DNA of 64,000 bases, from the NCBI GenBank assembly GCA_951812955.1, contig OX638340.1:1728001-1792000 (forward strand), written 5' to 3'. Below, piece by piece: positions 32,650 through 55,422 of this stretch (its first letter is position 1; each line of letters opens with the position of its first letter). The translations under genes and the position numbers were made by a program. This DNA is from an uncultured Gemmatimonadota bacterium (GTDB lineage Bacteria > JAAXHH01). The notes under the pieces were generated by a model. It saw only the letters and a program-made list of their open reading frames with translations, was not told the origin of the DNA and ran no database searches.

Positions 32650-33321
32650 TTGCACCAACGTACGGGACAGTCGCTTAATTCGCGGAGCATGACCATGCCA
32701 CAACGGGAAGGCGCCACCCGCCGCCAGATTCTGGAGTTGCTCAAACGACGGGGCGACATGACGGCCGGGCAACTCGCCGAAGAAATTGGGATCACTTCCA
32801 TGGGCGTTCGCCAACACCTGAGCGGCCTTGAGCGCGACGACCTGGTCGAGACGCGGGTCGTGCGGCAGGACCGCGGCCGGCCGGCGCACTACTTCGGCCT
32901 GACGAATGAGGCGGAGCACCTTTTCCCGGCTCGATACGGCCAACTCGCGGTGGAACTGCTCGAACAGATTGCCGAAATCGACGGACCGGAGAAGGCAGAC
33001 AACCTCTTCGCGCTTCGTACGGAGCGTCTCGAGCAGGCCTACAAAGAAGAGATGGCCGGGCAACCCCTGGCGGATCGGGTGCGCGTCCTCGGCGAAATCC
33101 GGGACCGGGAGGGATACATGGCCGAATCCCATCCGGAAGGTGATGAGTACGTCCTGGTGGAACACCACTGCCCGATCTACGAAATTGCCCGCCGTTTCCC
33201 CCGGGTCTGCCAGCTCGAACAGGAGTTGTTCGAACGAACGCTGGATGCCGGAGTCCGCAGGGACGAACACAAGATACTCGGCGACAACCGGTGCCGTTAC
33301 CTGGTCCGAAAGCGCGATTGA
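32650..33321 (+). CDS. Winged-helix (ArsR/MarR-like) transcriptional regulator with a C-terminal Cys-containing domain
   Basis: wHTH segment ILELLKRRGDMTAGQLAEEIGITSMGVRQHLSGLE. C-terminal HHCP...C motif. TTG start with a GAGGAG RBS at 32650; alternative ATG at 32689. Confidence 0.6.
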   Translation: MHQRTGQSLNSRSMTMPQREGATRRQILELLKRRGDMTAGQLAEEIGITSMGVRQHLSGLERDDLVETRVVRQDRGRPAHYFGLTNEAEHLFPARYGQLAVELLEQIAEIDGPEKADNLFALRTERLEQAYKEEMAGQPLADRVRVLGEIRDREGYMAESHPEGDEYVLVEHHCPIYEIARRFPRVCQLEQELFERTLDAGVRRDEHKILGDNRCRYLVRKRD

Positions 33322-33441: not shown

Positions 33442-34467
33442 ATGAGCAAACCACGAATCTGGTACCTGCCGACGCCGTCTCACACTGCCGGCGTCTTCAA
33501 GGATGAAACCTACCGGCGATTGCTGGCGAGTTTCGACGTGGTAGTGAACGAAACCGACCGCGCGATGACCGCCGGCGAGGTGGAAGAAGGGATAGCCGGC
33601 TTTGACGGACTCGTCACCGGATGGGGCGTCATGCCGATCAGCGGGACAGCCCTGGAGCGGGCCGATCGATTGAAGTTCGTCGTGCACTCCGCCGGATCGG
33701 TCAAATACCTATTCACCTCCGAGATGGTCGCCGGCCACTTGGCGCCCAGGGGAATCCGTGTCGTCAGCGCGCGGGGTGCCATCGCCCTGAATGTGGCGGA
33801 ACACGCGGTCGGCGCACTGATCATGATGAGCCGCCGGTGGGTCCACGATGCACTCAACATTCGGAATCGGGGCATGTGGCGGGATCCGGACAAGAACTGG
33901 TCTAACCAGTTTTTACGGGGCTCCGTGGTGGGTATCGTGAGCGCCAGCATGGTGGGTCGGGAGGTGATCCGGCTTCTCCAGCCCTTCAACGTCCGCATCC
34001 TCGTTTTCGATCCTTACCTGAGCGATTGGGACGCCGGCCGCATGAACGTGGAACGAGTGGACATGGACACGCTGTTCGAGACATCGGACATGGTTACCAT
34101 CCACGCGCCGTCAATCCCGGAGACGGAACGCATGATCGGCGCGGAACAGCTTCGGCTCCTGCGCGACGACGCCGTCCTGGTCAATACCTCGCGGGGATCC
34201 GTCCTGGACCACGACGCGCTGTACGAAGAAGCCAGGACCGGCAGAATCCAGGTCCAGCTGGACGTGACCACCCCTGAACCCCTGCCGCCCGATCACAGAT
34301 TGCGCGGCCTCCCCAACGTGGTCATCACGCCCCACAGCTCGGGAACCGGCGCTTACGGCCACCTCGAGATCGGCGAGATAACGCTGAGCGCGCTGGAGCA
34401 CATTTTCTCGGGACGGGAACCGGTGCCGGGCGAGGTGGACCTGGCGTGCTGGGCGCAGATTGCGTAG
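33442..34467 (+). CDS. D-isomer-specific 2-hydroxyacid dehydrogenase family NAD-binding protein
   Basis: Rossmann GxGxxG (GIVSASMVGREV), catalytic Arg/Glu/His region (TSRGSVLD, HSSG). 341 aa. Confidence 0.9.
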   Translation: MSKPRIWYLPTPSHTAGVFKDETYRRLLASFDVVVNETDRAMTAGEVEEGIAGFDGLVTGWGVMPISGTALERADRLKFVVHSAGSVKYLFTSEMVAGHLAPRGIRVVSARGAIALNVAEHAVGALIMMSRRWVHDALNIRNRGMWRDPDKNWSNQFLRGSVVGIVSASMVGREVIRLLQPFNVRILVFDPYLSDWDAGRMNVERVDMDTLFETSDMVTIHAPSIPETERMIGAEQLRLLRDDAVLVNTSRGSVLDHDALYEEARTGRIQVQLDVTTPEPLPPDHRLRGLPNVVITPHSSGTGAYGHLEIGEITLSALEHIFSGREPVPGEVDLACWAQIA

Positions 34468-34551
34468 GGTGGGCTAGAGGTGGTCAGACAAAGTCACTAT
34501 AATGAATCTGTACGGCTCTATAAATAAACCGTCAATTCACGCTATTGTACT

Positions 34552-34968
34552 TTACTTGGAATTGAGCGCGAAGCGTGACAGCATCTCACAAATCTTTTTA
34601 GGCGGCCTGGGCCATGAATATGTGCCTCGTTCCCAAGAAAGTGTTTCAAAAGTTTCTGGCGATGCCTCTTCCACAATACGCATTAATTCATCATGCAGAA
34701 TCAGGTGCCAGATATCGCCTATCCTGAAACACATGTGCAGGTTCTTTCCAATGTACTTCCTGTCAACTAACATGCGTCCCTTGAGTTGAACTTTCAGGGT
34801 TTGATCACCATCTTTGTGATATGCCAAAAAATCAGCACCTTGCCAGTCGTCTGACAACTTGATACAGTTGAAGCCGTAATCAGCAAGTTTACTTGCTACT
34901 TTGTGGAAGTTGTATATCTCCTTCTGCTTGCTATTCAGTTCATCATAGTTAATTCTATCCAGTTTCAT
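34552..34968 (-). CDS. Low-G+C orphan protein, possibly PD-(D/E)xK-like, translationally coupled to folD
   Basis: ATG at 34968 overlaps the folD stop in an ATGA arrangement. AT-rich codon usage unlike its neighbours. Segment GADFLAY...LKVQLKG could be a D...QxK nuclease-like core; this is a weak inference. Confidence 0.5.
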   Translation of the reverse strand: MKLDRINYDELNSKQKEIYNFHKVASKLADYGFNCIKLSDDWQGADFLAYHKDGDQTLKVQLKGRMLVDRKYIGKNLHMCFRIGDIWHLILHDELMRIVEEASPETFETLSWERGTYSWPRPPKKICEMLSRFALNSK

Positions 34969-35867
34969 GCATCGTTTCTCCATAGTTGCACCCGCCGCCG
35001 CGCCGCACCCACCGTATTCTCCATCAACATGGCCACGGTCATGGGACCGACTCCCCCGATGCGGGGCGTGATCCAGCCGGCGACTTCCGCCACATCGTCA
35101 TCCACGTCGCTCAGGAGCTTCTTGCCCCTCCGGGTGATGCCCGCGGCTACTACGGCCGCGCCGGGTTTCACCATGTCTTTCTTGATCAGTCCGGGCGAAC
35201 CCGCGGCGGCTACGATGATATCGGCTTCGCGCAGGTGGGCGGCCATGTCGGGCACGGCCGAATGCAGTACCGTAACCGCCGCGTTGCAGTTGGGCCTTTT
35301 TAACGACAGCAGCAGGGCCAACGGGCGGCCGATGGTCAGTCCACGGCCGACGATTGCCACGTTTTTCCCTTCAATGGGTACACCGTAATGGACCAGTAAG
35401 GCGAGGATGCCGTTGGGCGTACAGGGCAGGGGACCCGGCTTGCCGATCACCAGCCGGCCCAGGTTGATGGGATTGAGTCCGTCCGCGTCCTTGTCCGGCG
35501 CCACGGAGAGCAGCGCTTCGTCCTCGTCGAGCCAATCCGGCAGCGGGATCTGCACGAGGATGGCGTCGACCTCCGGATCTTCGTTCAAGCGGCCGATATT
35601 CTGTAGCAGTTCCTCTTGCGAAGTGGATGCGGGCAGGTGGGTATGGATACTCCAAATGCCGATCTCCTCACACGCCCGGTGCTTCATGGAGATATAGGTC
35701 GCGCTGGGCCCGTCGTCTCCGACCAGGATCGTCGCCAGACCCGGCGTGATCCCCTGCTCGCGCATTTCGGCCGTTTCTTTCGCGAGCCTGGCCTGTATTT
35801 CGTCGGCCAGCTTGCGGCCGCTCATGATGACCGGGCCTTTGCCGGAACTCATTGGCTTACCTTTCAT
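34965..35867 (-). CDS. folD: Bifunctional 5,10-methylene-THF dehydrogenase / methenyl-THF cyclohydrolase
   Basis: Conserved FolD motifs (YISMKHRACEEIG, ILVQIPLP, GRGLTIGRPLALLL). The start may be the internal MSSGKG, 5 codons downstream. Confidence 0.95.
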   Translation of the reverse strand: MKGKPMSSGKGPVIMSGRKLADEIQARLAKETAEMREQGITPGLATILVGDDGPSATYISMKHRACEEIGIWSIHTHLPASTSQEELLQNIGRLNEDPEVDAILVQIPLPDWLDEDEALLSVAPDKDADGLNPINLGRLVIGKPGPLPCTPNGILALLVHYGVPIEGKNVAIVGRGLTIGRPLALLLSLKRPNCNAAVTVLHSAVPDMAAHLREADIIVAAAGSPGLIKKDMVKPGAAVVAAGITRRGKKLLSDVDDDVAEVAGWITPRIGGVGPMTVAMLMENTVGAARRRVQLWRNDA

Positions 35868-42836: not shown

Positions 42837-43283
42837 GTGAATACTTATAGCCACACCCAGTTCGGAACAGTCAACGTCGTCATCGTTATCGCCATCCTGC
42901 CGTTGGTCTTACTGCCTGCATGGCTGGCCGGAGCAGCCCCCATAGCCGGGCTGATCCTGATCCTCCTCCTGGGGATCCTAGTGCTGTTCTACAACCTGAC
43001 CGTCACAATCGATGACGCGCATCTTCGCATCCGCTTCGGGATCGGCATAATCCGCAAGAGGTTCCCCCTCGACCAGATCGACACTTGCCGACCGGTCAGA
43101 AATTCCTGGCTTTATGGGTGGGGAATCCGGCTAACGCATCGAGGCTGGCTTTACAACGTATCGGGACTGGAGGCAGTGGAACTGAAGATGAAGAGCGGTA
43201 AGACCTGTCGCATCGGGACGGACGAGCCCGCGGCACTGGCTGCCGCCATCAAGGAGAGGTTGGACAACCTGAGACCTGCGTAG
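42837..43283 (+). CDS. Small membrane protein (DUF3093/PH-domain-like)
   Basis: Two N-terminal TM helices followed by a small soluble domain. Last G+C-rich gene before the AT-rich island. Confidence 0.45.
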   Translation: MNTYSHTQFGTVNVVIVIAILPLVLLPAWLAGAAPIAGLILILLLGILVLFYNLTVTIDDAHLRIRFGIGIIRKRFPLDQIDTCRPVRNSWLYGWGIRLTHRGWLYNVSGLEAVELKMKSGKTCRIGTDEPAALAAAIKERLDNLRPA

Positions 43284-43947
43284 AAATAAGATCCTGACCA
43301 GGCGGATCCAGGGATCATCGGACTTATATCTTCGGTCTTATATCTTCGGTCTTAAATTTCTCGTCGATTTAAGAGTAAACCCGATATGCCCAGACCTACT
43401 GCTTTTCTCGCAACATAGCCTTGATTTCAGACACCTCGGATTCGATGTTTTTCAAGCTGCCTTTGATTTCAGTTACAAGGGCGTTTGTTTCGGCCCACAG
43501 ATCTGGAATCTTGCCGAATACATTTGCTTGCTGACCAACCTTTTTTGATAACCAGTTCATCGGCATCCTCTTTCATTTTCGAAATGTCTTAACGGGTGGC
43601 CGTGTTATTGAGTCCTTCCCATCTATCCGTCCTAACACTGCTATTTCGATACTATTGCGTTTTACAGGCCGAAGTAAAGAAGATCCTGAACTCATCTGAT
43701 GAATCAGCGGATTTCTGCCTTTGTCATTTCTGATTCTCCAGGTGTTCTTCCGTTTTCTGGTTCACTCGTTTGATCACGTAACCTTGAAATCGGTGGCGCA
43801 AATTCCGTGAATGTATAACCTCACTAGAATACAGTGGACTAGAAGCGAGATTTCTCGTGTTTTTATCAGAATTGTGAGTAAATGTTAACATTGAAAAACT
43901 AGGTTCCTTTATCTTTCTCCTCCCTTTATAACACAACTGAACGTTCG

Positions 43948-43985
43948 AGAATTACCCATACACAGGTGAATTACCCATACACAGG
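43948..43985. repeat. Perfect 19-bp direct repeat GAATTACCCATACACAGGT x2, 30 bp upstream of hsdR
   Basis: Copies at 43948-43966 and 43967-43985. Confidence 0.85.
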
Positions 43986-44015
43986 TATAGATCAAAAGCA
44001 AAACGGATATACAGC

Positions 44016-46781
44016 ATGCAGAGCGCCAACCAAACACCTGAACAGAAGGCACGAGACATCATCGACGTCAGGCTGGAACGCGCTGGCTGGAACTTACAGT
44101 CGAAGAACGAGATCGACTTCAGCGCTGGTCGCGGTATTGCCGTTCGCGAGTATCCGACAGACATAGGCCCCGCGGATTACGTCCTTTTTGTCGACAAGAA
44201 ACCAACCGGCGTGGTTGAGGCCAAACCTGCCACGCAGGGTCAAAATATCACGACTGTCGAGGAGCAGTCATCTGGTTATGCCAATGCCAACCTCAAGTGG
44301 GTAGACAACAAAGAGCCACTCCCCTTTGTCTACGAATCTACCGGCGAGCTCACGAGGTTCACCGACAGTCGCGACCCGAATCCTCGCTCACGAGAAGTGT
44401 TCAGCTTCCATCGGCCAGAGACCATGGCGAACTGGCTCAGCCAGTCCAATCCACTGCGTGAGCGGCTCCAGGGGCTGCCGGAATTGGATGTCAAAGGACT
44501 CAGGGCGTGCCAGATAAACGCCATCGAGAACCTTGAAACATCCTTCAAAAAGGACCACCCTCGCGCCCTCATTCAGATGGCTACCGGCTCCGGTAAAACC
44601 TACACAGCCATTACCTCGATCTACCGACTGCTCAAGCACGCTGACGCCAGGCGAGTCCTCTTCCTTGTAGACACCAGAAACCTCGGCGAACAGGCCGAAC
44701 AGGAATTCATGGCCTACGTGCCCGGTGACGACAACCGCAAGTTCACCGAGCTGTACAACGTCCAGCGCCTCAAATCGTCCTACGTCGCCAACGACAGCCA
44801 GGTCTGCATCAGCACGATCCAGCGTATGTATTCGATTCTGAGGGACGAGGAACTGGATGACGCTACAGAGCAAATCAACCCGGCGGAAATGGTGCAGCCC
44901 AAAAAACCAGTGCCGGTTGCCTATAACGAGAAGATCCCACCGGAGTTCTTCGACTTCATCATCATCGACGAATGCCACCGCTCGATTTACAACCTGTGGC
45001 GGCAAGTCCTCGAGTATTTTGATGCCTATCTCATCGGCCTGACTGCTACGCCGGACAACCGAACCTATGGATTCTTCCGAAAGAACGTGGTCAGTGAATA
45101 CCCACATGAGGAAGCCGTCGCCGACGGCGTAAACGTCGGCAACGAAGTCTATGTCATCGACACGGAAAGGACAAAGCACGGCGGAAGACTCAAGGCGGAG
45201 CAGCAAGTTGAAAAACGCGAGCGCCTGACGCGGCTCAAACGCTGGGAGATTCAGGACGAGGACGTCACCTACACCGCCAAGGAACTCGACCGGTCCGTCG
45301 TCAACCCCGACCAGATCCGCACCGTCATCCGCACTTTCCGTGACAAACTGCCTGAGATATTCCCGGGCCGCGCCGAAGTCCCGAAGACGCTCGTTTTTGC
45401 AAAGACCGACAGCCATGCCGACGACGTCATCCAGACCGTGCGCGAAGAATTCGGCGAAAGTAACGAGTTCTGCAAGAAGGTCACTTACAAAACCGAAGAA
45501 GACCCGAAATCCGTCCTCGCCCAGTTCCGCAACGACTACTATCCGCGCATCGCGGTAACCGTGGATATGATCGCCACGGGTACCGACGTAAAGCCGCTCG
45601 AATGCCTGCTCTTCATGCGTGACGTGAGGAGCCGTAACTATTTCGAGCAGATGAAAGGTCGTGGCACCCGCACCCTCGACCATGACGATCTCAGACAGGT
45701 CTCGCCCTCCGCCGCCAGCGGAAAGACCCACTACGTGATCGTGGACACCGTAGGGGTCACGAAATCGCTCAAGACCGCCAGCCAGCCGCTCGTCACCAAG
45801 CCCTCCGTGCCACTCAGGGACCTCCTCATGGGGGTGATGATGGGCGCATGCGATGAAGACACGGTGAGTTCGCTCGCCGGGCGCCTCGCGCGGCTTGATC
45901 AACAACTCGATTCCGCCGATAAAGAGCGGATCAAGAAGCAAGCCGGCGGTATCGAACTCACTCAAATCGTTGGCGATCTACTTGCCGCCATCGACCCTGA
46001 TCGCATTCAGGAAAAGGCGCATGGAATCGAACCCGTGCCCGACGGTGTTGAACCACCACCTGCCGTTTGCGAGAAGGCCCGGGAGCAGCTGGTCCATGAC
46101 GCAGCCGACGTGTTCAACGGCGAACTGGTCGAATTGATCGACTCGATACGTCGCGACAAGGATCAGACGATCGACCATGACAGCTTGGACAAGGTAACCC
46201 GCGCCGAATGGGAAGGCGACACGCGCGAGAACGCCGAAGCCATAGCGCAGGACTTCCGGCAGTATCTCGAAGCGAATCGCGATGAGATCGAAGCGCTGAC
46301 CATCTTCTTCGCCCAACCGCACCGTCGCCGGGAGTTGACGTACGCCATGATTCGTGAAGTCTTCGATAGACTGAAGAGCGACCAGCCTCGACTGGTCCCA
46401 TTACGGGTCTGGCAGGCCTATGTTCTGCTCGACGAATACAAAGGCGGTCAGCCAATCAGCGAACTGACTGCGCTTGTAGCGTTGATTCGCCGTGCCTGTG
46501 GCATCGATGGAAAGCTTTCGCCCTATTCGGAAACCGTGCGCCGGAATTTCCGGGACTGGATCATGAAGCGACACAGCGGTAGCGGAGAGAAGTTCAACGA
46601 CGAGCAGATGGACTGGCTGCGAATGATCCGCGAACACATCATCACTTCGTTTCATCTTGAACGCGATGATCTGGATTTAGCACCATTCGATAGCAGGGGT
46701 GGAATGGGGCAGATGTACAAGCTCTTCGGTGACCAGATGGATGAATTGATTGGCGAGTTGAATGAGATACTGGCGGCGTAA
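44016..46781 (+). CDS. hsdR: Type I restriction enzyme R (endonuclease/translocase) subunit
   Basis: N-terminal PD-(D/E)xK nuclease core (D...VVEAKP). SF2 helicase motif I QMATGSGKTYTAI and motif II DECHRS. 921 aa. Confidence 0.93.
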   Translation: MQSANQTPEQKARDIIDVRLERAGWNLQSKNEIDFSAGRGIAVREYPTDIGPADYVLFVDKKPTGVVEAKPATQGQNITTVEEQSSGYANANLKWVDNKEPLPFVYESTGELTRFTDSRDPNPRSREVFSFHRPETMANWLSQSNPLRERLQGLPELDVKGLRACQINAIENLETSFKKDHPRALIQMATGSGKTYTAITSIYRLLKHADARRVLFLVDTRNLGEQAEQEFMAYVPGDDNRKFTELYNVQRLKSSYVANDSQVCISTIQRMYSILRDEELDDATEQINPAEMVQPKKPVPVAYNEKIPPEFFDFIIIDECHRSIYNLWRQVLEYFDAYLIGLTATPDNRTYGFFRKNVVSEYPHEEAVADGVNVGNEVYVIDTERTKHGGRLKAEQQVEKRERLTRLKRWEIQDEDVTYTAKELDRSVVNPDQIRTVIRTFRDKLPEIFPGRAEVPKTLVFAKTDSHADDVIQTVREEFGESNEFCKKVTYKTEEDPKSVLAQFRNDYYPRIAVTVDMIATGTDVKPLECLLFMRDVRSRNYFEQMKGRGTRTLDHDDLRQVSPSAASGKTHYVIVDTVGVTKSLKTASQPLVTKPSVPLRDLLMGVMMGACDEDTVSSLAGRLARLDQQLDSADKERIKKQAGGIELTQIVGDLLAAIDPDRIQEKAHGIEPVPDGVEPPPAVCEKAREQLVHDAADVFNGELVELIDSIRRDKDQTIDHDSLDKVTRAEWEGDTRENAEAIAQDFRQYLEANRDEIEALTIFFAQPHRRRELTYAMIREVFDRLKSDQPRLVPLRVWQAYVLLDEYKGGQPISELTALVALIRRACGIDGKLSPYSETVRRNFRDWIMKRHSGSGEKFNDEQMDWLRMIREHIITSFHLERDDLDLAPFDSRGGMGQMYKLFGDQMDELIGELNEILAA

Positions 46782-46928
46782 GTCGGTCTTTTGCCAGGCT
46801 TCTTACTGCTGCTCCCTTCTGCCGCACTACTTTACATATTGACCATTATCTTTACATCATGTAGTTTTTCTTGGTATATTATAGCAAGTAAAGAAATTCA
46901 ATAATACTCCAACAATTGATCTGCATCA

Positions 46929-47177
46929 TTGGAGCGTATCGTGCCCAAAGTCAGCGCCAAGCGACAGATAACGCTTCCGGCTGATCAGTGCCGTCTGGTC
47001 GGTATCGAGCCAGGCGACGAGTGCCAGAGTTTCGTGGCCGATGGCCGCATTACCATAGTCCGCCAGGAGCCCGGCAGCGCCTGGGGATGTCTGTCGCATC
47101 TCGAAGGGGATCAGACGGTTTCAGACGAGGAGTCGCGCCAGAACGCCATGGAGAGAAAGCGGGACCAAACGCCTTGA
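46929..47177 (+). CDS. vapB: AbrB/SpoVT/MazE-fold antitoxin (VapB-like)
   Basis: Swapped-hairpin segment SAKRQITLPADQCRLVGIEPGDE. The stop overlaps the start of a PIN-domain gene. Confidence 0.7.
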   Translation: MERIVPKVSAKRQITLPADQCRLVGIEPGDECQSFVADGRITIVRQEPGSAWGCLSHLEGDQTVSDEESRQNAMERKRDQTP

Positions 47178-47575
47178 TCGCAATCGACACCAATGTCCTG
47201 CTGCGCTATCTCCTGAAAGATGATGAGGCGCAGGCTGAACGGGCGCGTAGCGTTATCGAGTGCGGCGAGCGCGTGCTCATTACGGACGTGGTACTGGCGG
47301 AAACGGTATGGACGTTAGCCGGCCGCAGATATCGCGCGAGCCGGACCGATCTGATCGATCTGGTCAACAAACTGCTGCAAGATGCCAACCTGTGCTTTGA
47401 GGATGACGAAGTGGTCTGGAGCGCCCTGCAGGCCTTTCGCAGGACGGAGGCGGACTTCGCCGACGCCCTGATCGTGTGCAAGGCCAGAAAGACGGTCCCC
47501 GCCGGCGACGAGTTGAGCGCGGTTTACACCTTCGATGATACCGCCTTGCAGTTGCCCGGTACCGCAGAGCCGTAG
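47174..47575 (+). CDS. vapC: PIN-domain ribonuclease toxin (VapC-like)
   Basis: TTG at 47174 overlaps the vapB TGA (TTGA). PIN acidic residues IAIDTNVLL ... ITDVVLAE ... DFADALI. The track ORF is over-extended upstream. Confidence 0.72.
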   Translation: MIAIDTNVLLRYLLKDDEAQAERARSVIECGERVLITDVVLAETVWTLAGRRYRASRTDLIDLVNKLLQDANLCFEDDEVVWSALQAFRRTEADFADALIVCKARKTVPAGDELSAVYTFDDTALQLPGTAEP

Positions 47576-47689
47576 CGCGTGTCTGGTGTATCGGCGCACG
47601 GGAAGTATGCCGGTATCTTTGTGAGTAGATGGATGAAGTTACTGATGAGTTGAATGAGGCGTTGGTGGCGTCTTTGACGGACTGATTTT

Positions 47690-49231
47690 GTGAATACTAT
47701 GATTCCAAATGGATGGGCCCATACATCGCTTGAAGCGGTGTGTCAGGTTCTCGATTCTAAGCGTATACCGTTAAATAACAGCGAACGTTCTCGACGTATC
47801 GCTGGTAAGTCCGCTGATGATCTTTACCCCTACTACGGCGCTACAGGTCAAGTCGGTGTAATTGACGATTTTATCTTTGATGGAGAACATGTTTTATTGG
47901 GCGAAGACGGTGCCCCATTTAATGATCCTTTCAAGGTAAAATCTTATCTGGTAGATGGGAAATTCTGGGTCAACAATCATGCTCATATTCTCAAATCAGC
48001 TATCCCAAACAGATATCTATGCCACTATCTCAATCAGATTGACTATTCTGGCTATGTAACAGGAACGACAAGACTGAAGCTTACTCAGACCGCATTAAAG
48101 CGAATTCCTGTTCTTGTTGCTCCCAAAGCCGAACAACACCGCATCGTCGCCAAAATCGAGGAACTGTTTTCCAAACTGGACAAGGGCATTGAGAGCCTGA
48201 AGGCGGCGAGGGCAAAGCTCGATGTCTATCGTCAGGCCGTGCTCAAGCACGCCTTCGAAGGCAAGCTCACGGCCCAGTGGCGCGAAGAGAACAAGGACAA
48301 GCTTGAGACACCCGAGCAATTACTCTCACGCATCAAAAAAGAGCGGGAAGCACGTTATAATAGGCAACTGCAGGAGTGGAAGGACGCCGTCAAGAAATGG
48401 GTGGAAGGCGGTAAGTCAGGAAAGAAGCCGACGAAACCTCCGAAGTTGGAGGAAATACCACACTTATCGATAACCGAAACAGTAACTCTTCCACCCCTCC
48501 CCGCTAATTGGGCTTATTTACACTTGGGGCTTGTGATCGACGAGCCCAAGTACGGTAGTTCGAAGAAATGTAACTACGACTACAAAGGCACAGGGGTTTT
48601 GAGAATACCTAATATCGTCCGAGGTGCAGTCGACACGTCCGATCTCAAAGGGACTCACTTCGAAGAGGACGAGAAACGCGCCTACGGTTTGAGGAGTGGT
48701 GAAATTCTCGTGATCCGATCAAACGGAAGTATCTCCGTAGTAGGTAGGTGCGCTCTAATCTCAAAAGCAGAAGAGCAGTATCTGTACGCTGGTTACCTTA
48801 TCCGCCTACGTAGTAACTTGACCGCGTTGCATCCCGAGTACCTTGTAGCTCTACTGTCAAGCCATCTGTTACGAACTCAAATCGAGCACAAAGCAAAATC
48901 GACTAGCGGTGTCAACAACATAAATTCGGGTGAAATCCAATCGCTCATCGTCCCTTTGTGCAGTCTCAGTGAGCAGGAAATAGTAGTCGAACGACTGTCT
49001 GCAAGTCTATCCTCGATTGACGCTATCAAGGGTGAGATCGACAATCAGCTACTACAAACCGAAGCCCTGCACCAATCCATCCTCAAGAAAGCATTCTCGG
49101 GCCAGCTCGTCCCGCAAGACCCGAATGACGAGCCCGCGTCAATTCTGCTTGAGCGCATCAATGGCGTAAAAGCTGCACTATCTCAAAACAACACACAGAG
49201 AAGACGTAGACACGAGAAGGCAACGGCATGA
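47690..49231 (+). CDS. hsdS: Type I restriction-modification specificity subunit
   Basis: Two target-recognition domains separated and followed by conserved coiled-coil spacer repeats (AKIEELFSKLDKGIESL ...). 513 aa. Confidence 0.9.
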   Translation: MNTMIPNGWAHTSLEAVCQVLDSKRIPLNNSERSRRIAGKSADDLYPYYGATGQVGVIDDFIFDGEHVLLGEDGAPFNDPFKVKSYLVDGKFWVNNHAHILKSAIPNRYLCHYLNQIDYSGYVTGTTRLKLTQTALKRIPVLVAPKAEQHRIVAKIEELFSKLDKGIESLKAARAKLDVYRQAVLKHAFEGKLTAQWREENKDKLETPEQLLSRIKKEREARYNRQLQEWKDAVKKWVEGGKSGKKPTKPPKLEEIPHLSITETVTLPPLPANWAYLHLGLVIDEPKYGSSKKCNYDYKGTGVLRIPNIVRGAVDTSDLKGTHFEEDEKRAYGLRSGEILVIRSNGSISVVGRCALISKAEEQYLYAGYLIRLRSNLTALHPEYLVALLSSHLLRTQIEHKAKSTSGVNNINSGEIQSLIVPLCSLSEQEIVVERLSASLSSIDAIKGEIDNQLLQTEALHQSILKKAFSGQLVPQDPNDEPASILLERINGVKAALSQNNTQRRRRHEKATA

Positions 49232-49983
49232 CCGGCAAACTTGCCATCAACATCGATAACCTGCTGCGCCAGCGTGCCATCGAAGAGGCGCTGGTGAACG
49301 CCATCGACCATCGCTCATACGAGGAGCGGGAGCCGGTTGAAGTTCGGATCACCCGCGATGAGTTGCTGGTCCTGAGTTATCCCGGGGCGGACCGCTCCAT
49401 CCGTATGGACGACTTCAAGCAGGGGCAGGCCGTGAGCAGGCGCTACCGGAACCGGCGAATTGGTGAGTTTCTGAAGGAACTCGACCTCGCCGAGGCCTGC
49501 TCAACCGGGGTGCCGAAGATTTTCACGGCCATGCAGCAGAACGGCTCACCGGAACCCATCTTCGAAAGCGACGAGAACCGGACCTGGTTTCGCGTGCGCC
49601 TGCCGGTGCATGAACGGGCATTACTTGCCACGACCGACCAGGATACCATACATGATACCCAACATGATAACTCATTGATAAATAAAAGGAAAAGTCACGG
49701 TACCCAACACGGTACCCAACATGATACCCAACATGATATCGACCAAGTCGAGCAACTGGTGGCTGTGCTCACTGGAGAGATGAGCCGAGCTAGTATCCAG
49801 GCAGGATTGGAACTCAAAGATCGGCCCCATTTCATCGAATCGTATCTAAAGCCTGCCCTGGAGGCCAAGTTGATTGAAATGACCCTCCCGGACAAACCCA
49901 CCAGTCGCCACCAGCGCTATCGCCTAACTGCCGCTGGAAAGGCTTTAGCTGAGCAAATCAAACGAGAGAACACCGCCAAATGA
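49228..49983 (+). CDS. HATPase_c_4 (RecG-C-terminal-like) plus wHTH small protein embedded in the hsdS-hsdM operon
   Basis: Segment NAIDHRSYEEREPVEVRITRDELLVLSYPG ... WFRVRLPVH matches the C-terminal module of Schlafen/AlbA_2-type putative regulators common in R-M loci. ATGA overlaps at both ends (49228/49231 and 49980/49983). Internal HGTQHGTQHDTQHD repeat. Confidence 0.5.
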   Translation: MTGKLAINIDNLLRQRAIEEALVNAIDHRSYEEREPVEVRITRDELLVLSYPGADRSIRMDDFKQGQAVSRRYRNRRIGEFLKELDLAEACSTGVPKIFTAMQQNGSPEPIFESDENRTWFRVRLPVHERALLATTDQDTIHDTQHDNSLINKRKSHGTQHGTQHDTQHDIDQVEQLVAVLTGEMSRASIQAGLELKDRPHFIESYLKPALEAKLIEMTLPDKPTSRHQRYRLTAAGKALAEQIKRENTAK

Positions 49984-51467
49984 ACACCGCTCCCATCGTA
50001 TCCAAAGTCTGGAGTTTCTGCAACACCCTGCGCGACGACGGGGTGAGCTATGGCGATTACCTGGAACAACTCACCTATCTGATATTTCTGAAGATGGCAG
50101 ACGAGTACGCCAAACCGCCGTACAGTCGGGACGTCGGCATCCCGGTCGAATTCAACTGGCAGAGCCTGAGATCGAAGAACGGCGCGGAACTCGAAGGCCA
50201 CTACGTCGCGCTGCTTCGAGCCTTCGGCACCAGGACGGGCATGCTGGGCCAAGTCTTTACCAGGGCCCAGAACAAGATCCAGGATCCGGCAAAGCTGTTC
50301 CGCCTCATCGCCATGGTGGACGACACCGAATGGGTCACCATGGGCGCCGACATAAAAGGGGATATCTACGAAGGGCTCCTGGAGAAGAACGCCGAAGATA
50401 CCAAGACCGGCGCGGGCCAGTATTTCACGCCGCGTGCTCTCATCCGGGCCATGGTCGAGTGCGTACGGCCCGAACCGGGAATGCTCATCGCTGACCCGGC
50501 CTGCGGTACGGGCGGTTTCTTTCTCGCTGCATACGACTTCATCACCAACCAGGACAATTTCAGGTTAGACAAGGATCAAAAAGCGTTCCTGAAACACGAG
50601 GCGTTTCACGGCAATGAAATCGTCCCCAATACACGCCGTCTTTGCCTGATGAACATGTTCCTGCACAATATCGGTGAAATCGACGGCGGCGTCCCGATAT
50701 CGCCCAACGACGCGCTGGTGGCCGATGCCGGCAAGCGTTACGACTATGTGCTGGCGAATCCGCCCTTCGGCAAGAAAAGTTCCATGAGTTTCACGAACGA
50801 GGAAGGCGAACAGGAAACCGACGACCTGACCTACAACCGGCAGGATTTCTGGGCGACGACCTCGAACAAACAGCTGAATTTCGTGCAGCACATCCGCACG
50901 ATGCTCAAGACCACCGGCCGCGCTGCTGTCGTCGTTCCCGACAATGTACTGTTCGAAGGCGGGGCCGGTGAGACGATCCGCAAAAAGCTGCTGGACAACA
51001 CGGACTTGCACACCATCCTGCGCCTGCCGACGGGCGTGTTCTACGCGCAGGGCGTCAAGGCCAATGTGATCTTCTTCGACAATCACGAAGCCAGCCCGAA
51101 TCCCTGGACGAAGCAGGTCTGGTACTACGACTACCGCACCAATATCCACCATACGCTGAAGAAGAAACCACTGCGCTTCGAGGACCTGTCGGATTTCATC
51201 AACTGCTACAACCCGCAGAATCGCCACCAGCGCAAGGCGACCTGGGACGAAAACGATGCACCGGAAGGCCGTTGGAGGAGTTACAGCTACGAGGAGATAA
51301 TCGCGCGCGACAAGACCAGTCTCGACATCTTCTGGCTCAAGGACAAAAGCCTGACGGACCTGGACAACCTGCCCGAACCTGATGACCTTGCCGAAGAGAT
51401 CATAGAGAACCTGGAGGCAGGTCTCAACAGCTTTCGCGAGGTGCTGGCTGGATTGGGGAGGCAGTAG
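49980..51467 (+). CDS. hsdM: Type I restriction-modification N6-adenine DNA methyltransferase subunit
   Basis: HsdM N-terminal domain, motif I DPACGTGGF, motif IV NPPFG. 495 aa. Confidence 0.95.
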   Translation: MNTAPIVSKVWSFCNTLRDDGVSYGDYLEQLTYLIFLKMADEYAKPPYSRDVGIPVEFNWQSLRSKNGAELEGHYVALLRAFGTRTGMLGQVFTRAQNKIQDPAKLFRLIAMVDDTEWVTMGADIKGDIYEGLLEKNAEDTKTGAGQYFTPRALIRAMVECVRPEPGMLIADPACGTGGFFLAAYDFITNQDNFRLDKDQKAFLKHEAFHGNEIVPNTRRLCLMNMFLHNIGEIDGGVPISPNDALVADAGKRYDYVLANPPFGKKSSMSFTNEEGEQETDDLTYNRQDFWATTSNKQLNFVQHIRTMLKTTGRAAVVVPDNVLFEGGAGETIRKKLLDNTDLHTILRLPTGVFYAQGVKANVIFFDNHEASPNPWTKQVWYYDYRTNIHHTLKKKPLRFEDLSDFINCYNPQNRHQRKATWDENDAPEGRWRSYSYEEIIARDKTSLDIFWLKDKSLTDLDNLPEPDDLAEEIIENLEAGLNSFREVLAGLGRQ

Positions 51468-51608
51468 GCGGTAGATGAACTTGTTAGGGACTCACTTACC
51501 GCGTATTACGATTATGTTCCGTTTATTTTCACTGTATTGAAGTTACTCCGAAAAACCAGTTAGGTTCGATTCATTTTCCATCGCAAGTATGTAAATCACT
51601 GAATTACT

Positions 51609-53777
51609 ATGAATAGTAACTGCAAAACTGAAGTTCGATCCGAATCTGAAATAGTCACCGATTTAGAGAGTTTGAGCCAGGAAAAAGGGTACATCTATTC
51701 CTTCTGTCGAATGGTTGATGAATACCTGTGGTTGAAACCCAGCGAACCCGAAATCCCTGATTGGCACAGTCAATTAAACATACGTGAGTTAACTTTCTTA
51801 TTAGGGTTAATGGTCAAGTATCAATTGACCATATCTGATTCTCCGACTGAACGGGAGTCTGACCTACATATCGATAAGACCAATGAGTTGTTTCATGAAC
51901 TTCATCAAACTCATGCTTTTCCGAAAACAAAGGAAGTAAACGCCGCCCAAGTGAACTTAGAAGATTGGGAATCGGGGTTGAAAAACACCTATACCGACTG
52001 GATCAAAAGCGGTAAAGGTATCGTCGAGCCGGTTTTTTATGGTGAAGAAGGTGCATACGATTTCCAGTTCCTCAAAATGGCAGCATGGAGGTACAAACTT
52101 GATAATCAGTGGATAAAGTCGAACATAGGTATGGATGTTGATACTTTAACTGATATCGCAGGTAAGATTAAACGACTTACCGAATATCGCGCCAATGATG
52201 TAACCAGGACGTCAGACTTCAGAGATTCATGCTTTCGGTTGATATCAGTCTTCTTAATTAAGCCAGATGGCGTTCCTGGCGCTAATAGAGAAGAAATCGA
52301 AGTCTTTCTTGAAACCTTTTCTGTTGAACCACGGGACGGAGTTAATCAGAACCTTAACACGATTGGTGAATACAACACGGCAGACTCGCACCCCATTATT
52401 AAGATTAACAATGAACTTTATTTCATTCCCATCTACTACAACCTAGCAAAATCCATCTACGAGAACCCCTTCTACTGGATTCTCAAAGACAGTGATTACA
52501 GACAAACAGGACTTCAGAACAGGGGTGATGTTACAGAAGAAATAGTATTCGAACTGTTACGACGAGTTTTTGGTATAGACAACGTTTTTCGCAGGGTAAA
52601 AATAAAACGTGGAAACAGAGACATAACGGATATCGACGTTCTTGCAGTATGTGGGAGTAAAGCTGTCATTGTACAGGTGAAATCTAAGAGACTTACGGTG
52701 CTGTCGAAAGGTGGTGATGGCAAGAGCATAGAGAAGGATTTCAAACAAGCTGTTCAGGATGCTTACACCCAAGCGTTATTGTCGAGAAACTTCCTGCTAG
52801 AGACAGATGAAACACTGACGGTTAATGAAGAAAGGCTAATGCAGGTCAAAGGGAACATCGATGATGCCTATATAATCTGCGCTACTGGTGATCATTATCC
52901 TGCAATTACTATTCAGACAAAGTCATACCTCAAAAAGAAGGCAACCGACCCTTACCCAGTTGTACTAAGCGTTTTTGACCTTGATACTATATCGTTTTAC
53001 CTCAGAGAACCGTATGATTTCATATACTACGTTCGTCAACGCACTATACATGCGGGTCACTTCGAGGCTGATTCAGAAATGGCCTTTCTTGGTTTTCATC
53101 TAAACAAAAAACTATTTCCCACAGATGGATATGATATCACGATTATCCCACAATATTATGCATATCTCATCGATATTAGTTTTCCAGTCCTAAAGGGTGA
53201 GCATCCTATTTCGGATGCAGCATACAAGGTATTCCACAAGTGGAAAAACAACGATTTTGATGAGCTAGTTAATGAAATCAAAGTTAGAAATACCGGTCAT
53301 CCACAACTGACAGATTTGATTTTCTTTTTGTTCGATTTAGCAGGATCAGTAGCCGACAAGATTTTCGAAATCTTCGGCGAAATCAAACGAACCACTCGTG
53401 GTGACCTAAAGCCTCACGATGCTACAATTCCAATAGACCAAGCCGGGAAAGGTATAACACTGTTCTGCTACCCTTCGACGTTAGAACTTAGTGAGACAAT
53501 AATCCAAGATCAGTTTCGAGGCTTTGCAGCTGCTCGGAAATACAAAAGCAAAGCTAATGAATGGTTAGCGCTCGCATCATCCGCACAAAGTTCAAATCTG
53601 TTTGACTGTCTCTGGTATAGTAAAGAAGTATGGTGTTATGATGAGAGTTTCGAGCGTCTATCAAAACACATGATTAAACAAGGACATCCCATTCGTACTG
53701 ACGGACGGAAAATAGGTAGAAATTCACCCTGCCCTTGTGGAAGTGGATTGAAGTTTAAAAAGTGCCACGGAAAATAA
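51609..53777 (+). CDS. Large uncharacterised protein with a NERD-like (PD-(D/E)xK-type) core and a C-terminal SEC-C zinc-binding motif
   Basis: 722 aa, AT-rich. Segment RGNRDITDIDVLAVCGSKAVIVQVKSKR matches the NERD/PD-(D/E)xK D...(E/Q)xK core. The C-terminus GRNSPCPCGSGLKFKKCHGK is a SEC-C (SecA C-terminal-type) metal-binding motif. Confidence 0.6.
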   Translation: MNSNCKTEVRSESEIVTDLESLSQEKGYIYSFCRMVDEYLWLKPSEPEIPDWHSQLNIRELTFLLGLMVKYQLTISDSPTERESDLHIDKTNELFHELHQTHAFPKTKEVNAAQVNLEDWESGLKNTYTDWIKSGKGIVEPVFYGEEGAYDFQFLKMAAWRYKLDNQWIKSNIGMDVDTLTDIAGKIKRLTEYRANDVTRTSDFRDSCFRLISVFLIKPDGVPGANREEIEVFLETFSVEPRDGVNQNLNTIGEYNTADSHPIIKINNELYFIPIYYNLAKSIYENPFYWILKDSDYRQTGLQNRGDVTEEIVFELLRRVFGIDNVFRRVKIKRGNRDITDIDVLAVCGSKAVIVQVKSKRLTVLSKGGDGKSIEKDFKQAVQDAYTQALLSRNFLLETDETLTVNEERLMQVKGNIDDAYIICATGDHYPAITIQTKSYLKKKATDPYPVVLSVFDLDTISFYLREPYDFIYYVRQRTIHAGHFEADSEMAFLGFHLNKKLFPTDGYDITIIPQYYAYLIDISFPVLKGEHPISDAAYKVFHKWKNNDFDELVNEIKVRNTGHPQLTDLIFFLFDLAGSVADKIFEIFGEIKRTTRGDLKPHDATIPIDQAGKGITLFCYPSTLELSETIIQDQFRGFAAARKYKSKANEWLALASSAQSSNLFDCLWYSKEVWCYDESFERLSKHMIKQGHPIRTDGRKIGRNSPCPCGSGLKFKKCHGK

Positions 53778-53847
53778 CATCCGATCCTGAAACTTGATCT
53801 TGCAAGGGTCTGTCACGGAAAGGTTCGGTCATAGAGTATTAAGCTTA

Positions 53848-54918: not shown

Positions 54919-54921
54919 ATG

Positions 54922-55422
54922 CTACTCTTGCTCCTTGATTTTAGCGTTTCTTACGCGCTTAGCTACATATTGAGTCTGTTTTCTATAAGAGAATAAAAAT
55001 ATCAACAATAACCCCGCCAAAATTATTAAAACTATTTCATCATCACTTATAGACCACAAATGCTTCAACTCGTCAAAGATTTTGAGGAAAACTAACACAA
55101 TCACTAGCGAACTCAGCGTACGATACATGTTGTTCTGTTCTGACAAGACCTCGATCTTTGAATCCACTTCTACTGCTTCCAGATAATCCTTGTAGTCTGC
55201 GAACCGAACAAATTTGATCTTTTTGAGTAGGGGTTCCAATATCAACGATCCAATCCTGCTAATGACCAACCCTGCCATGTAGTATATAAACACTCCTATG
55301 ATCCAGTCCTTATGGACTAATGAAAATGAGGTGATTTGTTCTCCCAGACCAGCAAATAGAACTCCAGGAAGTAGATAGTTAAAAATGTTATATGACGACA
55401 GCTTTTCAATTACAGTTTTCAT
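54922..55422 (-). CDS. Small polytopic membrane protein, first gene of a two-gene operon with the MBL-fold hydrolase
   Basis: 166 aa with about 4 hydrophobic helices (LLPGVLFAGL, IIGVFIYYMAGLVI, LSSLVIVLVFL, IVLIILAGLLLIFLF). Its stop lies 3 nt before the MBL gene start. Confidence 0.6.
   Translation of the reverse strand: MKTVIEKLSSYNIFNYLLPGVLFAGLGEQITSFSLVHKDWIIGVFIYYMAGLVISRIGSLILEPLLKKIKFVRFADYKDYLEAVEVDSKIEVLSEQNNMYRTLSSLVIVLVFLKIFDELKHLWSISDDEIVLIILAGLLLIFLFSYRKQTQYVAKRVRNAKIKEQE

What the first reader, a model, noticed from the sequence alone, without database searches (positions are those of the whole stretch)
34552..34968. Foreign-composition orphan gene translationally coupled to folD
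A 138-aa, AT-rich ORF starts with an ATGA overlap on the folD stop and lies between convergent housekeeping genes. Its sequence (GADFLAY ... LKVQLKG ... IGDIWHLILHDE) could be a small PD-(D/E)xK-like nuclease or HEPN-like domain. A single horizontally acquired gene hitch-hiking on an essential gene's transcript may be a selfish or defence-related singleton.
Basis: partly seen in the sequence, partly recalled or inferred. Interest (0 to 1): 0.5.

Follow-up and report, generated by a model that had tools for sequence, protein, structure and literature searches.

The report
Mobile stand-alone PD-(D/E)xK mini-nuclease gene
A small gene acquired by horizontal transfer sits just behind folD and encodes a restriction-enzyme-like nuclease; its family is widespread, uncharacterised, and moves between unrelated bacteria as little more than a bare reading frame.

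Summary
A 138-aa ORF lies on the minus strand at 34552-34968. Its GC is 42% against about 60% locally, and its ATG overlaps the folD stop (ATGA). It sits between the convergent folD and a 2-hydroxyacid dehydrogenase gene.

It is not an orphan. More than 2,300 homologue clusters exist across many phyla, nearly all stand-alone proteins of about 135-145 aa with no conserved neighbour. Almost all are lower in GC than their hosts.

Six related genomes with the same synteny have an empty site (a 26-85 nt spacer). Two closer relatives carry the gene, which is under strong purifying selection (dN/dS 0.05-0.11).

The ATGA overlap is a local accident. folD lost its ancestral stop (TAA to CAA); relatives have a 17 or 54 nt gap.

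Copies in unrelated contexts share only the ORF and a few tens of bases.

Best reading: a mobile, oligomeric DNA endonuclease, probably defence- or conflict-related. Its substrate and mode of transfer are unknown.

The parts
34552..34968 (-). 138-aa stand-alone PD-(D/E)xK (PD-QxK type) nuclease gene. Proposed catalytic residues are E17, D46 and Q61-x-K63, with D40, D41 and H51 also conserved.
34977..34981 (-). GGAGA Shine-Dalgarno, 8 nt upstream of the ATG. It now lies inside the extended folD reading frame.
   Evidence: Read directly from the sequence. It is conserved as GGAGA in L002 and AGGAG in L003.
34468..34985 (-). Inserted segment of about 518 bp: 17 nt of 5' flank, the ORF, and 84 nt of 3' flank. 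It fills the folD / 2-hydroxyacid dehydrogenase spacer, which is only 26-85 nt in related genomes.
   Evidence: Filled sites (window, L002, L003) were aligned with two of the empty sites (L163, L164). Further empty sites are L177-L180. The tract has 42% GC. There are no target-site duplications, terminal inverted repeats or attC core sites.
34965..34988 (-). Lineage-specific C-terminal extension of folD (QLWRNDA, then the stop). The ancestral stop codon position is 34986-34988 and now reads CAA. The new stop is the TGA within the nuclease gene's ATGA.
   Evidence: In the alignment the relatives have TAA, TAG or TGA at this position. Gene calls in L002 confirm it.
34965..35867 (-). folD (methylenetetrahydrofolate dehydrogenase/cyclohydrolase). 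It is the upstream co-oriented host gene whose transcript most likely carries the nuclease gene.
   Evidence: Pfam PF00763 and PF02882. No promoter-like site lies between folD and the nuclease gene on the minus strand.
33442..34467 (+). Convergent D-isomer-specific 2-hydroxyacid dehydrogenase gene, the other border of the insertion site.
   Evidence: Pfam PF02826. Synteny with L002, L003 and L163-L180.

Best explanation
The gene encodes a minimal, stand-alone, metal-dependent endonuclease of the PD-(D/E)xK superfamily.

**What is shown**
- The active site is of the PD-QxK type: E17 on helix 1, D46 at the start of strand 2, and Q61-x-K63 on strand 3.
- Its closest structural relatives are I-Ssp6803I, Hjc, and the DREN and Mrr/BisI-type nucleases.
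- About 518 bp (the ORF plus minimal flanks) was inserted into the short spacer between the convergent folD and 2-hydroxyacid dehydrogenase genes. This happened in the recent ancestor of this lineage.
- The gene has since been inherited vertically under strong purifying selection.
- It belongs to a family spread by horizontal transfer through many phyla as a single-gene, ORF-only unit.

**What is inferred**
- It works as a homo-oligomer (dimer or I-Ssp6803I-like tetramer) that cuts DNA.
- It has no promoter of its own here and is expressed by read-through of the folD transcript, using its own GGAGA ribosome-binding site.
- Its role is most likely restriction-like defence or genetic conflict. 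It would recognise something that host DNA lacks, such as a base modification or a DNA structure, and so need no partner methyltransferase. This is how the small PD-QxK BisI-family enzymes work.
For: **Fold and active site**
- The AF2 model has pLDDT 93.3 and pTM 0.85, with the order helix, three strands, then further strands and helices.
- Foldseek gives the same set plus SPARDA DREN chains at probability 0.99.
- D46 and K63 are invariant, and E17 and Q61 at least 90% conserved, in 49 diverse members.
- In eight fused two-domain relatives, one half keeps E17/D40/D41/D46/H51/Q61/K63. The other half has lost several of them but largely keeps W87/H92/D93/S111/W112. This marks the first set as functional and points to an active-plus-structural oligomer.
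- That arrangement is the one described for I-Ssp6803I and DREN tetramers.
- PD-QxK is the site of Mrr, MspJI, BisI and Type ISP nucleases. In DUF4365/DREN the tested active-site residues are Q62 and K64.
- 10 of 49 members give sub-threshold DUF4365 hits.

**Insertion and selection**
- Empty sites are found in L163, L164/L165 and L177-L180. Filled sites are the window, L002 and L003.
- dN/dS is 0.05-0.11.

**Mobility**
- Gene GC is below flank GC in all but 3 of 88 copies, with means of 0.49 and 0.61.
- The GC dip is confined to the gene.
- There is no conserved neighbour.
- Copies in different contexts and phyla share only the ORF plus 0-60 nt upstream and 0-90 nt downstream.

**Conflict link**
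- In Paracoccus plasmids the gene occupies a variable slot inside an operon of an MmeI-like type IIG enzyme, a helicase and a T5orf172 protein.
- Rare fusions join it to Mrr_N, Nmad3, Swt1-HEPN and ankyrin domains.

**Expression**
- No promoter-like site lies upstream on the minus strand.
Against: - No biochemical or genetic data exist for any member.
- No curated model matches it in Pfam, NCBIfam, PADLOC or PHROGs.
- Profile comparison with the EcoKMrr catalytic domain found nothing.
- Most copies sit among housekeeping genes rather than in defence islands: 116 Pfam families were found among 147 neighbours.
- In this window the gene lies about 9 kb from the type I R-M island, not inside it.
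- The family is unusually conserved for a restriction enzyme, at 54-91% identity to the window protein across phyla. That fits one fixed substrate but does not say which.
- The 138-aa protein has no room for a separate modification-reading domain.
- A constitutively active non-specific nuclease would be toxic, so some form of specificity or control must be assumed.
- The Mrr_N "fusion" (P0279) may simply be the ORF inserted into an mrr gene.
Confidence: 0.5

Rival explanations
1. It is a selfish free-standing homing-type endonuclease gene. The nuclease would cut a site in genomes that lack it, and repair would copy the ORF in. It would persist by drive rather than by benefit to the host.
For: - The best structural match is the homing endonuclease I-Ssp6803I.
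- The unit is a single ORF with minimal flanks, inserted precisely between genes, with presence/absence polymorphism at the site.
- Two copies occur in one Nitrospirales genome (L031/L063).
- A copy with a premature stop lies at another site in a sister genome (L181). This fits the invade-then-decay cycle of such genes.
- Fused asymmetric pseudo-dimers recall the evolution of homing endonucleases towards asymmetric targets.
Against: - Insertion sites share no sequence or context. Homing needs homologous flanks, whereas copies in different contexts share only the ORF.
- There is no intron or intein context.
- None was found in 50,697 phage records.
- Strong purifying selection persists over dS of about 0.6-0.8 of vertical descent. 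High cross-phylum conservation also argues for a function that is continuously selected.
Confidence: 0.17
2. It is an accessory DNA repair or recombination nuclease: a structure-specific enzyme, such as an Hjc-like junction or flap resolvase, that benefits the host directly.
For: - Very high sequence conservation across phyla suggests a universal, structure-type substrate.
- The gene sits among housekeeping genes and is under purifying selection.
Against: - The distribution is patchy. Only 341 loci were found in a collection of 185,579 species genomes, which is a lower bound because the scan was limited to a few patterns.
- Closely related genomes lack it.
- GC is foreign in almost every host.
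- Hjc uses ExK, not QxK, and no HMM-level similarity to Hjc or RecU was found.
Confidence: 0.12
3. It is a latent effector or toxin nuclease, DREN-like. It would be non-specific and become active only when an unlinked sensor or an infection cue drives its oligomerisation (abortive infection), or it would be held in check by an unlinked immunity factor.
For: - The closest Pfam family by sequence is DUF4365/DREN: 10 of 49 members hit it, best E 0.0074.
- The QxK position is nearly the same, Q61/K63 against Q62/K64 in TmuRE.
- Foldseek matches SPARDA DREN chains. DREN is activated by tetramer assembly.
- The family is embedded in a plasmid defence operon in Paracoccus.
Against: - No APAZ, Argonaute, antitoxin or any other recurrent partner is nearby.
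- The DUF4365 hits are below threshold, and the window protein itself gives none.
- The protein has no regulatory domain.
Confidence: 0.1
4. It is a catalytically inactive DNA- or RNA-binding protein, or the fold assignment is misleading and it is not a nuclease.
For: Q replaces the second acidic residue of the classic motif. No sequence-level link to any characterised nuclease was found.
Against: - QxK is a proven active variant in Mrr-like, BisI and DREN nucleases.
- D46 and K63 are invariant, and E17 and Q61 nearly so.
- They are lost selectively in the second half of fused forms, as expected of catalytic residues.
- The model is high-confidence and the fold matches are consistent.
Confidence: 0.05

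Closest known systems
I-Ssp6803I (PD-(D/E)xK homing endonuclease, PDB 2OST)
   Different: No sequence-level similarity was detected. I-Ssp6803I is encoded inside a mobile intron, homes to a 23-bp site, and its close homologues are mostly cyanobacterial. This family is free-standing and intergenic, sits in unrelated sites, and spans many phyla.
DREN / DUF4365 nuclease domain of SPARDA (short Argonaute-associated effector)
   Same: It is the only Pfam family touched by sequence: 10 of 49 members, best E 0.0074. Foldseek matches SPARDA chains at probability 0.99. Both are N-terminal PD-QxK domains with Q/K at nearly the same positions, 61/63 against 62/64. The DREN tetramer resembles I-Ssp6803I.
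   Different: All hits are below the Pfam threshold, and the window protein has none. There is no APAZ fusion and no Argonaute neighbour. DREN is a non-specific collateral nuclease switched on by filament assembly. Nothing shows that this family is regulated that way.
Mrr-like PD-QxK modification-dependent restriction endonucleases, especially the small BisI family (NhoI, Eco15I)
   Different: There is no HMM or profile similarity to Mrr_cat. BisI-family dimer contacts come mainly from an extra N-terminal helix, alpha0, and this was not examined here. Modification dependence is untested.
Hjc archaeal Holliday-junction resolvase
   Different: Hjc has ExK rather than QxK. This family is a patchy, horizontally moving bacterial accessory gene, and no Hjc HMM hit was found.

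Membership tests
PD-(D/E)xK phosphodiesterase superfamily (fold level) | [quoted passage not shown] | tested here: met
PD-(D/E)xK phosphodiesterase superfamily (fold level) | Catalytic D at the start of strand 2 and (D/E/Q)xK on strand 3, plus an acidic residue on helix 1 | tested here: met
   D46 is invariant and lies at the start of strand E45-51. Q61-L62-K63 lies at the end of strand E57-62. E17 lies on helix H13-29. These residues are lost selectively in the degenerate half of fused relatives. The residue-to-element mapping is by position in the model, not by superposition.
PD-(D/E)xK phosphodiesterase superfamily (fold level) | Metal-dependent phosphodiester cleavage | not testable with these tools
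   This needs enzyme assays.
Mrr-like type IV restriction endonucleases (Pfam Mrr_cat PF04471) | PD-QxK catalytic motif | tested here: met
   D46 ... Q61-x-K63.
Mrr-like type IV restriction endonucleases (Pfam Mrr_cat PF04471) | Sequence or profile match to the Mrr catalytic domain | tested here: not met
   No PF04471 hit at E up to 1 for the window protein or for any of 49 relatives. hhalign of the family profile against EcoKMrr and against a 22-sequence Mrr alignment gave probability below 1%.
Mrr-like type IV restriction endonucleases (Pfam Mrr_cat PF04471) | N-terminal modification-sensing domain (winged helix, SRA or similar) and modification-dependent cleavage | tested here: not met
   The window protein is a single 138-aa domain. 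One relative (P0279) carries Mrr_N, but that may be an insertion into an mrr gene. Modification dependence itself cannot be tested here.
DUF4365 / DREN (SPARDA effector nuclease) | Pfam PF14280 match above the gathering threshold | tested here: not met
   The window protein gives no hit. 10 of 49 relatives give sub-threshold hits only, best E 0.0074.
DUF4365 / DREN (SPARDA effector nuclease) | Fusion to APAZ and an adjacent short Argonaute gene | tested here: not met
   No such neighbour is present in the window, and none appeared among the conserved neighbour clusters or the most frequent Pfam and PADLOC families of the genes flanking the family copies in about 75-80 loci.
I-Ssp6803I-type homing endonucleases | Encoded within a self-splicing intron or intein, or recurring at one homing site | tested here: not met
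   The gene is intergenic between folD and a dehydrogenase gene. Family copies lie in unrelated contexts.
I-Ssp6803I-type homing endonucleases | Sequence homology to I-Ssp6803I | tested here: not met
   phmmer and a profile search against all PDB sequences found no nuclease. The similarity is structural only.
I-Ssp6803I-type homing endonucleases | Cleavage of the empty (gene-less) allele | not testable with these tools
   Empty-site sequences are available for a test (L163, L164, L177-L180).
   The model is a mixed alpha/beta fold with seven strands. Fold matches are PD-(D/E)xK nucleases and related endonuclease-fold proteins, none HEPN. A HEPN domain occurs only as a separate fusion partner in one relative.
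Type II toxin-antitoxin module | Adjacent small partner gene in the same operon | tested here: not met
   The insert contains only this ORF. No recurrent partner was found among the genes flanking the family copies in about 75 loci.
Integron gene cassette | attC recombination site (RYYYAAC ... GTTRRRY inverted cores) 3' of the ORF | tested here: not met
   Neither core motif is in the 3' flank. No significant hairpin is present (z -1.4). No flanking repeats were found. Only a simple motif test was run; no dedicated attC model was available.

The most novel reading that the evidence does not exclude
The family is a previously unrecognised kind of single-gene mobile element or single-gene immune system. 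It would be a minimal I-Ssp6803I/DREN-like nuclease whose bare ORF, with no recombinase, repeats or attC, is copied into short gene-gene spacers of bacterial chromosomes and plasmids across phyla. In this reading the nuclease itself promotes the insertion, as a homing-like or break-induced, microhomology-mediated event, or protects the host as the smallest known stand-alone restriction-like defence.
Probability: 0.2. Interest if true: 0.7.

Novelty: new variant of a known kind. Interest (0 to 1): 0.45.

Why it matters
If the reading holds, this is an abundant and highly conserved family of the smallest stand-alone PD-QxK nucleases. It has about 1,000 clusters at 50% identity and is missing from Pfam, NCBIfam, PADLOC and PHROGs.

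- **Possible new specificity.** One conserved 138-aa domain that needs no methyltransferase or partner could be a new compact modification- or structure-specific endonuclease. Such enzymes are useful as reagents, as the BisI and MspJI families are.
- **Mobility.** The family spreads ORF-only across phyla, and filled and empty sites are both available here. That gives a clean system for asking how single genes enter operon ends without recombinase signatures.
- **For this genome.** The gene is an ordinary accessory gene. The folD overlap is a by-product of a lost stop codon, not a regulatory device.

Tried and rejected
- **Curated libraries.** Pfam, NCBIfam, PADLOC and PHROGs gave no hit on the window protein.
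- **PDB by sequence.** Single sequence and profile both returned only chance hits.
- **Link to Mrr.** hhalign against EcoKMrr and against a 22-member Mrr alignment gave no signal. The Mrr alignment was not diverse (at least 70% identity), so this is a weak negative.
- **Conserved partner.** All-against-all clustering of ORFs within 5 kb in about 80 loci, Pfam and PADLOC scans of 147 immediate neighbours, and a scan of ten tightly abutting downstream genes found none.
- **Conserved flanking motifs.** Inspection of 83 pairs of flanks found nothing. Repeats at the insert borders, attC cores and 3' hairpin folding were all negative.
- **Metagenome scan with folD.** The 67-76% identical folD loci have no synteny, so they could not serve as empty sites. 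Empty sites came instead from homologues of the dehydrogenase gene.
- **Phage records.** No match.
- **AlphaFold database fold search.** The library was unavailable.
- **Exact contig of the window protein.** Not on record, so the organism is known only through relatives. The nearest named genome, L003, is labelled Gemmatimonadota.
- **Rejected readings.** HEPN (wrong fold). Toxin-antitoxin (no partner). Integron cassette (no attC). Designed translational coupling (the overlap is not conserved). The 143-aa start (not conserved).

Full report
**The observation**

The window carries a 138-aa ORF on the minus strand at 34552..34968. Its ATG (34968-34966) overlaps the TGA (34967-34965) of a minus-strand gene, 34965..35867. 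That gene matches both folD domains at E 1e-37 and 6e-55. Downstream lies a convergent D-2-hydroxyacid dehydrogenase gene, 33442..34467 (+).

The ORF has 42.4% GC and GC3 of 0.49, against GC3 of 0.77 in folD. Outside the large low-GC island at 43-59.6 kb, only 0.5% of 417-bp windows are as AT-rich (z = -3.8).

The longer 143-aa reading from the ATG at 34983 is not conserved. The relative L002 has ACG there, and the family N-terminus is MKL.

**It is a real gene, and not an orphan**

A search of 5.8 billion proteins returned 2,311 clusters at E of 0.01 or better. Most of the best 120 are 134-159 aa long, with no Pfam domain and no informative name. A word-index-free profile search of 50%-identity representatives found 1,064 relatives, 222 of them below 1e-30.

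A pattern-limited scan of one genome per species found 341 loci. By record title these lie in:
- Gemmatimonadota, Latescibacterota and Chloroflexota/Dehalococcoidia;
- Vicinamibacterales, Nitrospirota, Nitrospinota and Binatia;
- Thermodesulfobacteriota, Verrucomicrobiota and Elusimicrobia;
- Melioribacteraceae;
- Alpha-, Beta- and Gammaproteobacteria.

An alignment of 49 members is 54-91% identical to the window protein. D40, D46, H51, K63, W87, H92, S111 and W112 are invariant. E17, D41, Q61 and others are at least 90% conserved.

Against two syntenic relatives (L002 at 92% and L003 at 86% protein identity), dN/dS is 0.054 and 0.112. That is as low as for folD (0.10, 0.13) and for the dehydrogenase gene (0.10, 0.11).

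**It was inserted as a single gene**

L002 and L003 keep the order PhyH, SDR, HpaB, folD, [gene], dehydrogenase. Six further genomes have a dehydrogenase 80-85% identical to the window's and keep the same synteny. In these, only 26-85 nt separate the folD and dehydrogenase stops. They are L163, L164/L165, L177, L178, L179 and L180.

An alignment places the insert at about 34468-34985. It consists of the ORF, 17 nt of 5' flank holding a GGAGA Shine-Dalgarno (34977-34981), and 84 nt of 3' flank. No target-site duplication, terminal inverted repeat or attC core motif flanks it. The 3' hairpin is not better than shuffled sequence (z -1.4).

None of the 80 more distant folD loci from metagenomes carries the gene.

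One sister genome has an empty folD site at 3.08 Mb (L177). The same contig has a 75%-identical copy at 2.10 Mb, among IS fragments. That copy has a premature stop at codon 120 (L181).

**The ATGA overlap is an accident of this lineage**

At the position of window 34986-34988 the relatives have a folD stop: TAA in L002, TAG in L003, and TGA in L163 and L164. The window has CAA. folD therefore reads on through QLWRNDA to the first in-frame stop, which is the TGA of the nuclease gene's ATGA.

L002 has a 17-nt gap and L003 a 54-nt gap between folD and the gene. No promoter-like site lies upstream of the gene on the minus strand, and none lies between it and folD. Expression by read-through from folD is therefore a reasonable inference. 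Designed translational coupling is not.

**What the protein is**

No curated library recognises it, and nothing in the PDB matches by sequence. An AlphaFold2 model built on the 49-sequence alignment is confident (pLDDT 93.3, pTM 0.85). It shows a helix (13-29), three strands (33-42, 45-51, 57-62), then further strands and helices.

- then a fusellovirus nuclease, HhaI, Eco15I, tRNA-splicing endonuclease subunits, PvuII and VRR-NUC.

Foldseek gives the same set plus the DREN nuclease chains of SPARDA at probability 0.99. A search of viral models gives small phage PD-(D/E)xK nucleases and resolvases.

By position in the model, invariant D46 opens strand 2, Q61-L-K63 closes strand 3, and E17 lies on helix 1. 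That is the canonical placement, with Q in place of the second acid.

The literature describes PD-QxK as the "Mrr-like" catalytic site. It is found in EcoKMrr, MspJI, the BisI family and the Type ISP enzymes (PMC11347163, PMC12707154, PMC3874165).

In the DUF4365/DREN domain of a SPARDA effector, Q62 and K64 were identified as the potential active-site residues and mutated to give an inactive control (PMC10810196). DUF4365 is also the only Pfam family that relatives touch: 10 of 49 members, best E 0.0074, all below threshold. Profile comparison with the EcoKMrr catalytic domain found nothing.

**A natural experiment on the active site and the oligomer**

About ten of the best 150 representatives are tandem fusions of two family domains. 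I aligned eight of them to the family profile.

One half always keeps E17, D40, D41, D46, H51, Q61 and K63. The other half has lost several of these, for example D46 to R/S/N, Q61 to R/E/K, and K63 to P/R/C. It largely keeps W87, H92, D93, S111 and W112.

This marks the first set as functional residues and the second set as structural. It also shows that the working unit contains at least two domains, one of which can be purely structural. That is the arrangement described for the I-Ssp6803I tetramer and for the DREN tetramer of SPARDA, each with two active and two supporting subunits (PMC3384342; bioRxiv 10.1101/2025.04.08.647717). The tetramer itself is an inference.

**How the family behaves in genomes**

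- **GC.** In 88 copies from 82 loci, gene GC is below flank GC in all but three. The means are 0.49 and 0.61, and the two correlate with r = 0.68. The dip is confined to the gene, the 100 nt upstream, and a shallower few hundred bases downstream.
- **Neighbours.** Clustering of all ORFs within 5 kb found no partner shared by more than 9 loci. The 147 immediate neighbours hit 116 different Pfam families, mostly metabolic or housekeeping. A minority are Fic, integrase, transposase or defence hits. Ten tightly abutting downstream genes share no family.
- **Orientation.** The upstream neighbour is co-oriented in 55 of 76 loci. That is no more than usual for bacterial genes.
- **Size of the shared unit**.
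  - Two copies in one Nitrospirales genome share 554 bp at 94%.
  - A Nitrospirales copy and a Vicinamibacterales copy share 513 bp at 87%.
  - L039 and L042 share 413 bp at 92.7%, which is the ORF plus 5 nt.
  - The window gene shares only the ORF with L001 and L181.
- **Vectors.** No copy occurs in 50,697 phage records. Nine occur in 72,556 plasmids.

I could not explain how an ORF-only unit is inserted.

**Link to conflict systems**

In two Paracoccus plasmids, a 50-53% identical member sits between a complete MmeI-like type IIG enzyme and an SF2 helicase, with 1-nt and 4-nt overlaps. A T5orf172 GIY-YIG protein follows.

The same three-gene system in a Nitrobacter plasmid has the enzyme and helicase genes directly coupled, without the nuclease gene. 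A Pseudosulfitobacter plasmid carries three other genes in that slot. The helicase is found in 263 plasmids, against 9 for the nuclease. So the gene is optional cargo in a variable slot of a defence operon.

Rare fusions join the domain to Mrr_N, Nmad3, Swt1-type HEPN and ankyrin repeats. The Mrr_N case has the family's normal Met-Lys start at the junction, so it may be an insertion into an mrr gene. Other plasmid contexts are accessory regions with recombinases, transposases and nucleotidyltransferases.

**Weighing the readings**

These points are well supported:
- the PD-(D/E)xK fold with an intact PD-QxK site;
- oligomeric function;
- horizontal acquisition as a single gene;
- vertical retention under purifying selection.

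The biological role is inferred. I favour a restriction-like, partner-free DNA endonuclease that acts on something host DNA lacks. My reasons are:
- the catalytic site is of the kind used by modification-dependent enzymes;
- no methyltransferase partner is present;
- small single-domain precedents exist in the BisI family;
- the gene occupies a slot in a defence operon;
- it behaves like mobile accessory genes.

High conservation across phyla suggests one fixed substrate, either a modification or a DNA structure.

Against this reading:
- most copies lie outside defence islands;
- there is no profile-level link to Mrr;
- no experimental data exist.

The homing-endonuclease rival fits the ORF-only unit, the best fold match and the decayed copy in L181. 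It does not fit the unrelated insertion sites, the absence from phages, or the sustained purifying selection. The resolvase and latent-effector rivals remain possible.

**Verdict**

The gene is a member of a large uncharacterised family rather than an orphan, and the folD overlap is incidental. It is a new stand-alone variant within a known superfamily. Interest is moderate. It rests on the family's abundance, its conservation and its unexplained ORF-only mobility.

Noticed in passing
window 43000-59600: A low-GC island (40-55% GC against about 60%). It holds a type I R-M system (HsdR 44016-46781 +, HsdM 49980-51467 +), a NERD + SEC-C protein (51609-53777 +), an MBL-fold protein (53848-54918 -) and an EEP-family nuclease (58757-59539 -). 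The nuclease gene under study lies about 9 kb outside it.
   Followed up: partly
window 34965-34988: folD has lost its ancestral stop codon. The window has CAA where relatives have TAA, TAG or TGA, and folD gains 7 residues (QLWRNDA) encoded by the inserted DNA.
   Followed up: yes
window 32650-33321 (+): An ArsR/HTH_20-type regulator gene lies between the Rieske-protein gene and the dehydrogenase gene. It is present in the window, L002 and L179 but absent in L163, L177, L178 and L180. This is a second presence/absence difference in the same neighbourhood, independent of the nuclease insertion, because L179 has the HTH gene but an empty folD site.
   Followed up: partly
L031 and L063 (same Nitrospirales chromosome OZ242026.1); L039 and L075 (same MAG): Some genomes hold two copies of the family at distant sites. 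In L031/L063 the two share only about 554 bp, which is the ORF plus 29 nt upstream and 90 nt downstream. Several Vicinamibacterales and Nitrospirales copies carry a TATAAT/GATAAT-like element 9-22 nt before the start codon, which may be a minimal promoter of their own.
   Followed up: partly
L014 3160-4023, L016 8001-8855, L017 8001-8864, L034 8001-8909; proteins P0241, P0242, P0291, P0298: These are tandem-fused two-domain family members. Only one half keeps the catalytic residues, and the degenerate half can be N- or C-terminal.
   Followed up: yes
L167 2260-8645 (Paracoccus plasmid NZ_CP034814.1); L172 1724-7783 (Nitrobacter hamburgensis plasmid 2); L170: A three-gene plasmid system is widespread: its helicase is found in 263 plasmids. 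It consists of an MmeI-like type IIG enzyme, an SF2 helicase with a pseudomurein-binding repeat, and a T5orf172/MUG113 GIY-YIG protein. The junction between the enzyme and helicase genes accepts different cargo genes. I did not identify it as a named defence system.
   Followed up: partly
L181 5001-5414 (contig ctg125316, 2.10 Mb): In a sister genome whose folD site is empty, a 75%-identical copy of the gene carries a premature stop at codon 120. It lies in a 45%-GC patch with rve-integrase fragments.
   Followed up: yes
L033 8425-9207, L077 2164-2937, L080, L082: In one gammaproteobacterial subgroup the shared unit is about 1.2-1.3 kb. It includes a second gene of about 260 aa that starts 4 nt after the nuclease stop and has no Pfam match.
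   Followed up: partly
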